DNA from: Escherichia coli
GTDB lineage: Bacteria > Pseudomonadota > Gammaproteobacteria > Enterobacterales > Enterobacteriaceae
Direction: 5' to 3' (one strand)
NCBI RefSeq assembly: GCF_051903065.1
Contig: NZ_CP178438.1
Length of the DNA: 64,000 bases
The notes beneath the pieces are model-generated. The model saw nothing but the letters and a program-made list of their open reading frames with translations. It was not told where the DNA came from and ran no database searches. Of this stretch, positions 49,142 through 49,632 are shown one piece after another. Positions within the stretch are counted from its first letter, which is position 1. Each line of letters opens with the position of its first letter. Made by a program: the position numbers and the translations under genes.

Positions 49142-49632
49142 TTAGTGGGAAATACATATGAAGCGTGGTGTCCTGCCTGTAGAGAATACGTAGTTGTAAT
49201 CATTTTGACGTGTAACATAAAAATTAATTGAGGTGTCAACTTTTATGAAAAAATCAGAAGTAATATTTTCAAGGATTTCATCACTAATGTTATCATCTTT
49301 TTGTATTTTTTGTATTTTAACAGTGGTGAAATAAACGGTATCACGGAATTTCTTGTATGTAAAACTCACATATCGGCGGATGAAACCCATTTTTTTCCAT
49401 TTACCGTGTATGCACCCGTGAGATACATATTCCCTGTATTATTTTCAGAAATCATATTTAACGAAAAGTATTGATCCATTTTCGTATGATCGGTGAAATT
49501 AATAACATGGGCATTACATGATATGTTTTGCTCTGCTGGTTCATTGGCATGATGAAACGCAATATGGCTCAGAATTGCTGCAATAAAAGCACATAAAATT
49601 ATTCCCGCAAATAGAAAATATCTTTGAGTCAT
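49142..49632 (-). pseudogene. ToxS-like membrane-anchored periplasmic partner protein, apparently split by a frameshift
   Basis: Track ORFs 49366..49632 (MTQRYFLFAGIILCAFIAAILSHIAF..., N-terminal TM anchor) and 49142..49390 overlap in different frames; the start abuts the upstream regulator stop; AT-rich. Confidence 0.4.

What the first reader, a model, noticed from the sequence alone, without database searches (positions are those of the whole stretch)
49142..49632. Possible frameshifted ToxS-like partner gene downstream of the truncated regulator
Immediately after the regulator stop, an ORF begins with a single N-terminal TM anchor (YFLFAGIILCAFIAAILSHIAF) and a periplasmic domain, then stops after 88 aa. 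A second ORF in another frame (49142-49390) overlaps it by 25 nt and continues for about 80 aa. Joined, they would give a protein of roughly 170 aa, the size and topology of ToxS-like partners of ToxR-like regulators. This could be a decaying two-gene signalling module or a sequencing or programmed frameshift.
Basis: inference. Interest (0 to 1): 0.45.

Follow-up and report, generated by a model that had tools for sequence, protein, structure and literature searches.

The report
Frameshifted fidL pseudogene beside IS1-truncated grvA
The two overlapping small ORFs are one known E. coli gene, fidL (the ToxS/VtrC-like membrane partner of the ToxR-family virulence regulator GrvA), broken by loss of a single G; it is an ordinary, already annotated pseudogene in a module whose regulator had earlier been cut off by an IS1 element.

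Summary
ORFs 49366-49632(-) (88 aa) and 49142-49390(-) (82 aa) overlap by 25 nt. Joined, they give a 163-aa protein identical to the intact allele WP_000194264.1 and differing at two residues from ECs_1273, the FidL-like protein of E. coli O157:H7 Sakai.

The break is the loss of one G (GGAAAAAAGATGGG to GGAAAAAAATGGG), leaving an A7 run at 49390-49396 after codon 81. RefSeq already annotates these coordinates as "YqeJ family protein, frameshifted" in two near-identical genomes (23CRST027 and 23CRST031).

The upstream gene is grvA. It has lost its first 63 codons, most of the DNA-binding domain, at an IS1 junction. Strain ECNB21-M121 (99.9% identical) has the same IS1/grvA junction but an intact fidL, so the IS1 event came first and the frameshift followed.

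The ToxS-like reading passes an independent test. An AlphaFold model of the repaired protein (pLDDT 94.5) has ToxS and VtrC as its seven best PDB matches, and homologues in Klebsiella and Pseudocitrobacter are single ~160-aa genes downstream of wHTH regulators. Kinch et al. 2022 already described GrvA/FidL as a ToxRS/VtrAC-like co-component system.

A programmed frameshift is not supported. One curiosity remains: a -1 slip on the new A_AAA_AAA would restore the exact wild-type protein.

Verdict: already known, low interest.

The parts
49142..49632 (-). fidL (FidL/YqeJ-family) pseudogene, 491 nt instead of 492 nt, the partner gene of grvA
   Evidence: Window is identical over 9161 nt to NZ_AP045800.1, where PGAP annotates the same span as 'YqeJ family protein, frameshifted'. 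Orthologue of Sakai ECs_1273.
49366..49632 (-). 5' reading frame: codons 1-81 of FidL (TM helix and beta-strands 1-3, including invariant Cys39), then 7 out-of-frame codons and a stop
   Evidence: H2-29, E37-46, E50-61, E66-77; C39 invariant.
49142..49390 (-). 3' reading frame: codons 82-163 of FidL (beta-strands 4-8, a short helix and conserved Cys160). It has no signal or TM segment of its own.
49390..49396 (-). Frameshift site. The A7 run was created by loss of the G of GGA AAA AAG ATG. It reads A_AAA_AAA in the zero frame.
   Evidence: Alignment A1. Coordinates and the -1 slip product were checked.
49637..50262 (-). grvA remnant (ToxR-family wHTH transmembrane regulator) lacking the first 63 codons, i.e. 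most of the DNA-binding domain
   Evidence: The full-length allele is 270 aa and PGAP labels the remnant 'missing N-terminus'. The N-terminal region matches OmpR/PhoB/CadC-type wHTH models.
50263..51030 (-). IS1A copy (768 bp) that truncates grvA. It has no target-site duplication and is transcribed in the same direction as grvA'-fidL'.
51243..51330 (-). tRNA-Ser (GGA), the chromosomal border next to the IS1. The remainder of the OI-47-like island is absent.
   Evidence: Compare.
47526..49040 (+). pdeT (EAL c-di-GMP phosphodiesterase), the convergent neighbour retained from the same island

Best explanation
This is fidL, the second gene of the grvA-fidL cassette of the OI-47-type island, inactivated by deletion of a single G after codon 81.

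Intact FidL is a 163-aa bitopic inner-membrane protein. It has one N-terminal TM helix and a periplasmic eight-stranded lipocalin-like barrel, closed by a disulfide between the first strand (Cys39) and the last strand (Cys160). By homology of fold and gene order with ToxS/ToxR and VtrC/VtrA, it is inferred to bind the periplasmic domain of the membrane-anchored regulator GrvA and to control or stabilise it in response to an external cue.

In this genome the cassette is dead in two steps:
1. An IS1-associated event removed the grvA promoter and the first 63 codons, most of the DNA-binding domain.
2. With the regulator gone, fidL acquired the 1-nt deletion. The main product is now a membrane-anchored 88-aa stub with 3 of 8 strands and no partner cysteine.

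Shown here: the identity of the gene, the lesion, the order of events and the fold. Inferred from the family: heterodimerisation with GrvA and the sensing role.
For: - Gene identity and lesion: (single-G deletion relative to three intact allele lineages).
- Annotation: RefSeq marks it as a frameshifted pseudogene.
- Order of events: ECNB21-M121 aligns contiguously across IS1, the junction, grvA' and fidL with 2 mismatches and 1 gap, and its fidL is intact.
- Rarity: among the 80 listed rows of 410 genomes carrying the locus, only the 23CRST pair has the 1-nt-shorter match.
- Probably real rather than error: the window differs from 23CRST031 at 4 SNPs, so it is a third sequence with the deletion. 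fidL is the only CDS flagged 'frameshifted' among the 63 CDS annotated in the 64 kb.
- Family: 77 homologues, nearly all ~150-165 aa and spanning both halves. C39 is invariant and C160 is at least 90% conserved.
- Fold: AF2 model with pLDDT 94.5. PDB hits 1-7 are ToxS (8u2f, 8alo) and VtrC (8dml, 5kev, 5kew).
- Gene order: the regulator-partner pair is conserved in Klebsiella and Pseudocitrobacter, and the partner carries PF27292 YqeJ_C.
- Literature: GrvA/FidL is a co-component system (PMC9214523). GrvA function is reviewed in PMC10877973.
Against: - No read data, so an assembly error at the A6-G-A site cannot be strictly excluded.
- The new A_AAA_AAA heptamer is intrinsically slippery, so some full-length FidL may still be made.
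- No experiment has shown what FidL senses, or that it binds GrvA. The complex is only predicted in PMC9214523.
- About 330 of the 410 matching genomes were not inspected individually.
Confidence: 0.87

Rival explanations
1. Sequencing or assembly artefact: the genome really carries an intact fidL, and the missing G is a base-calling error in an A-rich stretch.
For: The lesion lies in A6-G-A, a context where long-read callers make indel errors. The sister assembly 23CRST027 differs from 23CRST031 by a 1-nt homopolymer indel (G4 to G3) inside IS1, so at least one such indel difference exists in this set of assemblies.
Against: Three non-identical sequences share the deletion: the window, 23CRST027 and 23CRST031. 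The window differs from 23CRST031 at 4 SNPs. In the 64-kb window fidL is the only CDS of 63 flagged as frameshifted, so the assembly is not indel-ridden. The change is loss of a G, not a change in homopolymer length. Decay is also expected once grvA is destroyed.
Confidence: 0.08
2. Functional recoding: the A_AAA_AAA heptamer, in the zero frame as GGA AAA AAA, supports -1 ribosomal frameshifting, or A7 to A8 transcriptional slippage. Full-length wild-type FidL would then still be produced at a useful level, making this a leaky or 'rescued' indel rather than a dead gene.
For: A -1 slip, or one extra A in the mRNA, regenerates exactly the wild-type 163-aa sequence. A_AA.A_AA.A is among the heptamers with more than 0.10% frameshifting without stimulators in E. 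coli, against a background of about 0.055% (PMC4066793). C-AAA-AAA gave 25-60% frameshifting under over-expression (PMC1851650).
Against: The 93 nt from the end of the A-run onward fold no better than shuffles (z = +0.87), so there is no downstream structure. No SD-like element is seen upstream (sequence read). The two-frame state is confined to one clone, while every other orthologue inspected is in a single frame. The partner GrvA lacks its DNA-binding domain and its promoter, so restored FidL would have no known output.
Confidence: 0.05
3. Two genuinely separate small genes: a membrane-anchored 88-aa protein and an 82-aa soluble protein.
For: Both ORFs start with ATG. The second ATG is preceded by GGA about 7 nt upstream and lies inside the end of the first ORF, an arrangement that could permit coupled re-initiation.
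Against: The intact orthologues inspected and nearly all family members longer than 140 aa are single polypeptides covering both halves. The barrel and its Cys39-Cys160 disulfide need both halves in one chain, and the second half has no export signal. In Sakai the second 'start' is ATA (Ile), not ATG.
Confidence: 0.01

Closest known systems
FidL-like protein ECs_1273 (Z1530 region) with GrvA ECs_1274, in O-island 47 of E. coli O157:H7
   Same: This is the orthologous locus. It has the same neighbours (pgaA, dgcT/ycdT, EAL phosphodiesterase) and the same gene order, with a 4-nt gap between the grvA stop and the fidL start. The repaired protein differs from Sakai FidL at 2 of 163 residues (N78D, M82I).
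   Different: Here fidL has a 1-nt deletion after codon 81. grvA lacks codons 1-63 because of IS1. The rest of the island (SDR oxidoreductase, fimbrial operon) is missing.
YqeI/YqeJ (E. coli ETT2 remnant) and MarT/FidL (Salmonella SPI-3)
   Same: Same family: PGAP names it 'YqeJ family protein' and Pfam assigns PF27292 YqeJ_C / PF15941 FidL_like. The cassette architecture and the conserved N-/C-strand cysteine pair are the same (PMC9214523).
   Different: These are paralogous or distant members. Relatives outside the E. coli/Pseudocitrobacter group are roughly 20-30% identical. They have different chromosomal sites and different regulons. I did not align YqeJ or Salmonella FidL explicitly.
ToxS (partner of ToxR; Vibrio cholerae and V. 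parahaemolyticus) and VtrC (partner of VtrA)
   Same: Bitopic topology, a periplasmic lipocalin-like barrel, and a gene immediately downstream of a wHTH transmembrane regulator. These are the best structural matches in the whole PDB (8u2f_A E=1.9e-4, TMt 0.71; 8alo_B TMt 0.66; 8dml_B, 5kev_B, 5kew_B/D).
   Different: There is no detectable sequence similarity: 7-13% identity in the structural alignments, and no hit in sequence or profile searches of the PDB. FidL has the Cys39-Cys160 pair, which PMC9214523 reports only for the FidL/YqeJ-like subgroup. Neither a bile-salt ligand nor heterodimer formation has been shown for FidL.
Pseudogenised marT in Salmonella Typhi (decay of the homologous MarT/FidL cassette)
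   Same: It is a precedent for lineage-specific loss of a ToxR-like/FidL cassette by point lesions (PMC9214523; PMC2827545 abstract).
   Different: There the regulator and its target misL carry stop codons. Here the regulator is IS1-truncated and the partner is frameshifted.

Membership tests
FidL/YqeJ family (Pfam PF27292 YqeJ_C, PF15941 FidL_like) | Significant sequence similarity to named members over the whole length | tested here: met
   The repaired product is identical to WP_000194264.1 and differs at 2 residues from Sakai ECs_1273. The best database cluster is named FidL and carries PF27292 + PF15941. 77 homologues have E<=1e-3. The local Pfam copy does not match the query itself, and only 2-4 distant members hit FidL_like.
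FidL/YqeJ family (Pfam PF27292 YqeJ_C, PF15941 FidL_like) | One N-terminal TM helix followed by a periplasmic beta-barrel of about 130 aa | tested here: met
   AF2 model, pLDDT 94.5: helix 2-29, eight strands between residues 37 and 162, plus a short helix 118-124.
FidL/YqeJ family (Pfam PF27292 YqeJ_C, PF15941 FidL_like) | Conserved cysteine pair on the first and last barrel strands (disulfide described in PMC9214523) | tested here: met
   C39 is invariant and C160 is at least 90% conserved in 69 sequences. In the window the two cysteines fall in different reading frames, so the actual product lacks the pair.
FidL/YqeJ family (Pfam PF27292 YqeJ_C, PF15941 FidL_like) | Uninterrupted reading frame of about 150-165 codons (a functional member) | tested here: not met
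   A 1-nt deletion after codon 81 leads to a stop after 88 codons. It is a pseudogene of the family, not a functional member.
ToxR/ToxS - VtrA/VtrC type co-component signal transduction cassette | Partner gene directly downstream of, and co-oriented with, a wHTH-TM-periplasmic-domain regulator | tested here: met
   grvA' stop, 4 nt, then the fidL start. The same pairing with Trans_reg_C proteins of 272-274 aa occurs in Klebsiella and Pseudocitrobacter.
ToxR/ToxS - VtrA/VtrC type co-component signal transduction cassette | Partner has the ToxS/VtrC lipocalin-like fold | tested here: met
   Foldseek against the PDB: ranks 1-7 are ToxS and VtrC chains, probability 1.00, TM (target-normalised) 0.59-0.71.
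ToxR/ToxS - VtrA/VtrC type co-component signal transduction cassette | Detectable sequence homology to ToxS or VtrC | tested here: not met
   phmmer and profile hmmsearch against PDB sequences give no ToxS or VtrC hit at E<=10. Identity in the structural alignments is 7-13%. PMC9214523 likewise reports that these families are beyond confident sequence recognition.
ToxR/ToxS - VtrA/VtrC type co-component signal transduction cassette | Periplasmic heterodimer between regulator and partner; ligand (bile salt) binding | not testable with these tools
   Only a predicted GrvA/FidL complex exists (PMC9214523).
ToxR/ToxS - VtrA/VtrC type co-component signal transduction cassette | Regulator with an intact DNA-binding domain (a working cassette) | tested here: not met
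   grvA lacks codons 1-63 at the IS1 junction.
Programmed -1 ribosomal frameshift genes (dnaX / IS1 / IS3 type) | Slippery X_XXY_YYZ heptamer in the zero frame at the frame junction | tested here: met
   GGA AAA AAA = A_AAA_AAA. The -1 slip product equals the wild-type protein.
Programmed -1 ribosomal frameshift genes (dnaX / IS1 / IS3 type) | Stimulatory element (downstream hairpin or pseudoknot, or upstream SD-like sequence) | tested here: not met
   The 93 nt from the end of the A-run onward: MFE -9.5 kcal/mol versus shuffle mean -11.8, z = +0.87. No GGAG/AGGA lies within about 15 nt upstream.
Programmed -1 ribosomal frameshift genes (dnaX / IS1 / IS3 type) | Two-frame organisation conserved among orthologues | tested here: not met
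   Every other allele inspected is in a single frame. Family members are single proteins.

The most novel reading that the evidence does not exclude
The single-G deletion converted the zero-frame A_AAA_AAG of wild-type fidL into A_AAA_AAA. At that site a -1 ribosomal slip, or an A7 to A8 transcriptional slip, regenerates the exact wild-type 163-aa FidL. The 'pseudogene' could therefore be a low-level, slippage-dependent source of FidL. That protein might act without GrvA, for example on the paralogous YqeI, or be driven by read-through from IS1.
Probability: 0.05. Interest if true: 0.3.

Novelty: already known. Interest (0 to 1): 0.1.

Why it matters
It matters little beyond correct annotation. 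It shows that this commensal-type human faecal E. coli lineage has lost the GrvA/FidL virulence-regulation cassette in two steps: IS1 truncation and deletion, then a point frameshift. This is a textbook case of a partner gene decaying once its regulator is gone.

Two minor points of use follow. The independent fold search confirms the published structure-based assignment of FidL to the ToxS/VtrC superfamily. The grvA-fidL pair is also present in 410 of 5426 complete E. coli genomes of varied backgrounds, wider than the O157:H7/O55:H7/O145:H28 restriction stated in a recent review.

Tried and rejected
- Pfam scans of the repaired protein and of the 69-sequence alignment gave no hit for the query, because the local Pfam copy lacks PF27292. 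Only 2-4 distant members touched FidL_like.
- NCBIfam gave no family for FidL. The only hit was a spurious sub-threshold Rho match, 13.8 bits against a cut-off of 315.
- Sequence and profile searches of the PDB gave no ToxS or VtrC hit. Only the fold comparison revealed the relationship.
- The word-indexed homologue search returned only 8 close hits, so the exhaustive representative search was needed.
- The RNA fold downstream of the slippery site showed no structure above shuffles, so the programmed-frameshift reading was rejected.
- The promoter/terminator scan of 48950-50350 found nothing above chance: 10 promoter-like sites against 7.9±2.9 expected, and 1 terminator-like site against 1.0 expected. 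It gives no evidence for a new promoter feeding fidL'.
- The 'two separate genes' reading was rejected on orthologue and structural grounds.
- One paper search failed on syntax.

Full report
**1. What is in the sequence**

One is 49366..49632(-), 88 aa, MTQRYFLFAGIILCAFIAAILSHIAF...TVNGKKWVSSADM*. The other is 49142..49390(-), 82 aa, MGFIRRYVSF...RFICISH*. They lie in different frames and overlap by 25 nt.

The first ORF begins 4 nt after the stop of an upstream ORF (49637..50224). A GGAG sits 8 nt ahead of its ATG. The junction between the frames lies in a run of seven A at 49390-49396 on the minus strand, within GGTAAATGGAAAAAAATGGGTTTCAT.

**2. Identity of the locus**

A megablast of 49100-50260 against 5426 complete E. 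coli genomes finds the locus once per genome in 410 genomes.

In O157:H7 Sakai the two genes under the match are grvA (ECs_1274, "transcriptional regulator") and ECs_1273 ("FidL-like protein", 492 nt). They are flanked by the EAL phosphodiesterase, ycdT and pgaA on one side, and by an oxidoreductase and a fimbrial operon on the other. This is the O-island 47 region.

The window is collinear, with no indels and only 4 SNPs over 64 kb, with NZ_AP045800.1. That record is strain 23CRST031, from human faeces in Ecuador. There PGAP annotates:
- the span equivalent to 49142-49632 as "YqeJ family protein, frameshifted" (a pseudogene);
- the span equivalent to 49637-50260 as [quoted passage not shown];
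- an IS1A transposase directly upstream.

The sister isolate 23CRST027 carries the same annotation. The finding therefore corresponds to an already annotated pseudogene of a named gene.

**3. The lesion**

I aligned the window with the Sakai, O145 and 23CRST027 alleles (A1). The intact genes read GGA AAA AAG ATG/ATA GG. The window and 23CRST027 read GGA AAA AA- ATG GG, so one G is missing after codon 81.

Re-inserting it gives a 163-aa protein identical to WP_000194264.1, the intact allele found in strains ECNB21-M121, 33F4 and Tig207. It differs from the Sakai protein at two residues, N78D and M82I.

The actual zero-frame product keeps residues 1-81 and adds WVSSADM.

**4. Order of events and distribution**

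Strain ECNB21-M121 is 99.9% identical over the query. It aligns contiguously with the window through IS1, the IS1/grvA junction, the grvA remnant and fidL, with 2 mismatches and 1 gap over 5.9 kb. It therefore shares the same IS1-truncated grvA, but its fidL is intact at 492 nt.

Strain 33F4 (99.7% identical) has both genes intact, together with the oxidoreductase and fimbrial genes upstream.

The simplest history has two steps. First came IS1 insertion or deletion in grvA, then the 1-nt deletion in fidL in the 23CRST/window clone.

Among the 80 rows listed, only the two 23CRST genomes give the 1161-nt match. All other full-length matches are 1 nt longer than the query span they cover. The exceptions are XJ34 and XJ6-3, which carry an in-frame 9-nt deletion and are still annotated FidL. 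One further record matches only the fidL half of the query, and there fidL is annotated intact. I did not inspect the remaining ~330 records individually.

The IS1 (50263-51030, 768 bp) has no target-site duplication: its flanks are AATGCCCCC and CTGAAGTCG. On its other side lies tRNA-Ser (51243-51330) rather than island DNA. IS1 is therefore associated with deletion of the rest of the island.

**5. Real mutation or sequencing error?**

I cannot see reads, but three observations favour a real mutation:
- Three non-identical sequences share the deletion.
- fidL is the only CDS of the 63 annotated in the 64-kb region flagged "frameshifted".
- The change is loss of a G, not a change in homopolymer length.

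Against this, 23CRST027 and 23CRST031 differ by a G4/G3 indel inside IS1, so these assemblies are not guaranteed free of indel differences. I give the artefact reading about 8%.

**6. Is it ToxS-like?**

Sequence methods alone do not link it to ToxS. Pfam (local copy), NCBIfam, and PDB sequence and profile searches all gave nothing relevant.

An exhaustive HMMER search of 1.84 billion representatives found 77 relatives. Nearly all are 150-165 aa and match query residues ~10-160, that is, both halves of the split gene.

In a 69-sequence alignment Cys39 is invariant. Cys160, Gly67, Gly73, Phe128 and Pro156 are at least 90% conserved.

AlphaFold2 on this alignment gives a confident model with mean pLDDT 94.5 and pTM 0.79. 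It has a TM helix at residues 2-29, followed by eight strands and one short helix.

A Foldseek search of the whole PDB ranks these chains as hits 1-7:
- V. parahaemolyticus ToxS (8u2f);
- V. cholerae ToxS in the ToxRS heterodimer (8alo_B);
- V. parahaemolyticus VtrC (8dml, 5kev, 5kew).

Probability is 1.00 and target-normalised TM-scores are 0.59-0.71. Classical lipocalins appear only far below.

The gene neighbourhood is conserved. In Klebsiella and Pseudocitrobacter the homologue (Pfam PF27292 "YqeJ_C") overlaps the 3' end of a 272-274-aa Trans_reg_C protein.

This reproduces independently what Kinch et al. (PNAS 2022, PMC9214523) published. [quoted passage not shown] They note the conserved disulfide between the N- and C-terminal strands, and they predict a GrvA/FidL periplasmic complex resembling VtrA/VtrC.

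GrvA itself is a known activator of LEE and repressor of the GAD acid-resistance system in EHEC (review PMC10877973).

**7. Consequences of the lesion**

The 88-aa product retains the membrane anchor and strands 1-3. It lacks strands 4-8 and Cys160, so the barrel and its disulfide cannot form.

The second ORF would encode strands 4-8 without any export signal.

The upstream regulator has lost 63 N-terminal codons (one search compared). These lie inside the region that matches OmpR/PhoB/CadC-type winged-helix models, residues ~8-134. The native promoter region has also been replaced by IS1.

The cassette is therefore non-functional at both genes. What an intact cassette does mechanistically, namely FidL binding the GrvA periplasmic domain and relaying an external cue, is inferred from ToxRS/VtrAC and has not been shown for this pair.

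**8. The programmed-frameshift alternative**

The deletion changed the zero-frame A_AAA_AAG of the intact gene into A_AAA_AAA. A -1 slip there, or one extra A added by RNA polymerase, regenerates the exact wild-type protein.

Such heptamers are intrinsically shift-prone in E. coli:
- more than 0.10% without stimulators, against a background of ~0.055% (PMC4066793);
- 25-60% for C-AAA-AAA under strong over-expression (PMC1851650).

However, the evidence is against a programmed event:
- The RNA downstream of the slippery site folds no better than shuffles (z = +0.87).
- No SD-like stimulator is visible upstream.
- The split state exists only in one clone.
- The partner regulator is destroyed.

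I therefore treat this as incidental leakiness at most (about 5%), not programmed recoding.

**9. Verdict**

The gene, its family, its ToxS/VtrC-like nature and its pseudogene status in this lineage are all already on record. Novelty is "already known" and interest is low.

Noticed in passing
window 50263-51030 (IS1) and flanks up to 51330: The IS1 copy that truncates grvA has no target-site duplication (flanks AATGCCCCC / CTGAAGTCG). It abuts the tRNA-Ser (GGA) region directly. The SDR oxidoreductase and fimbrial operon found upstream of grvA in intact loci (Sakai, 33F4) are absent, which implies an IS1-associated deletion of the rest of the OI-47-like island. ECNB21-M121 has the same IS1/grvA junction but a tyrosine-integrase island on the other side of IS1.
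   Followed up: partly
L002:4860-4875 (Sakai fidL) and the equivalent in L003, L004, L006: Every intact fidL allele aligned or translated here carries A_AAA_AAG in the zero frame (GGA AAA AAG). This is the same slippery heptamer as dnaX and many IS elements. A -1 slip there would give a truncated product of about 97 aa. I did not examine whether this is used or merely tolerated.
   Followed up: no
whole locus; The grvA-fidL pair is present in 410 of 5426 complete E. coli genomes. These include O157:H16, APEC, and isolates from meat, water, baboon, guinea fowl and human faeces. A 2024 review (PMC10877973) describes OI-47/grvA as restricted to O157:H7, O55:H7 and O145:H28.
   Followed up: partly
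window ~12200-13548, 37046, 44353: The window differs from NZ_AP045800.1 (23CRST031) by only 4 substitutions and no indels over 64 kb. Two of the four fall inside the IS3-family IS1397 copy between cbpM and torD. One is in efeB and one in pgaA. The window therefore comes from a third, very close isolate or assembly.
   Followed up: partly
L001:3722-3729 versus L005 (IS1 insB region; window ~50530-50540): 23CRST027 has GCT-GGG where 23CRST031 and the window have GCTGGGG inside IS1. PGAP consequently calls the 23CRST027 transposase 'frameshifted'. This is either a real inactivating mutation of that IS1 copy or a homopolymer assembly error.
   Followed up: no
window 47430-49040 (+): The EAL phosphodiesterase (pdeT, known as vmpA in the EHEC literature from my own knowledge) has a longest ORF of 536 aa from ATG 47430. 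RefSeq annotates either 1515 nt (start equivalent to 47526) or 1611 nt in different genomes, so the start-site annotation is inconsistent between records.
   Followed up: no
L010:2129-2611 (strains XJ34 and XJ6-3): A different fidL variant carries an in-frame 9-nt deletion (483 nt, still annotated FidL). This shows other length variation at this gene in bovine isolates.
   Followed up: no
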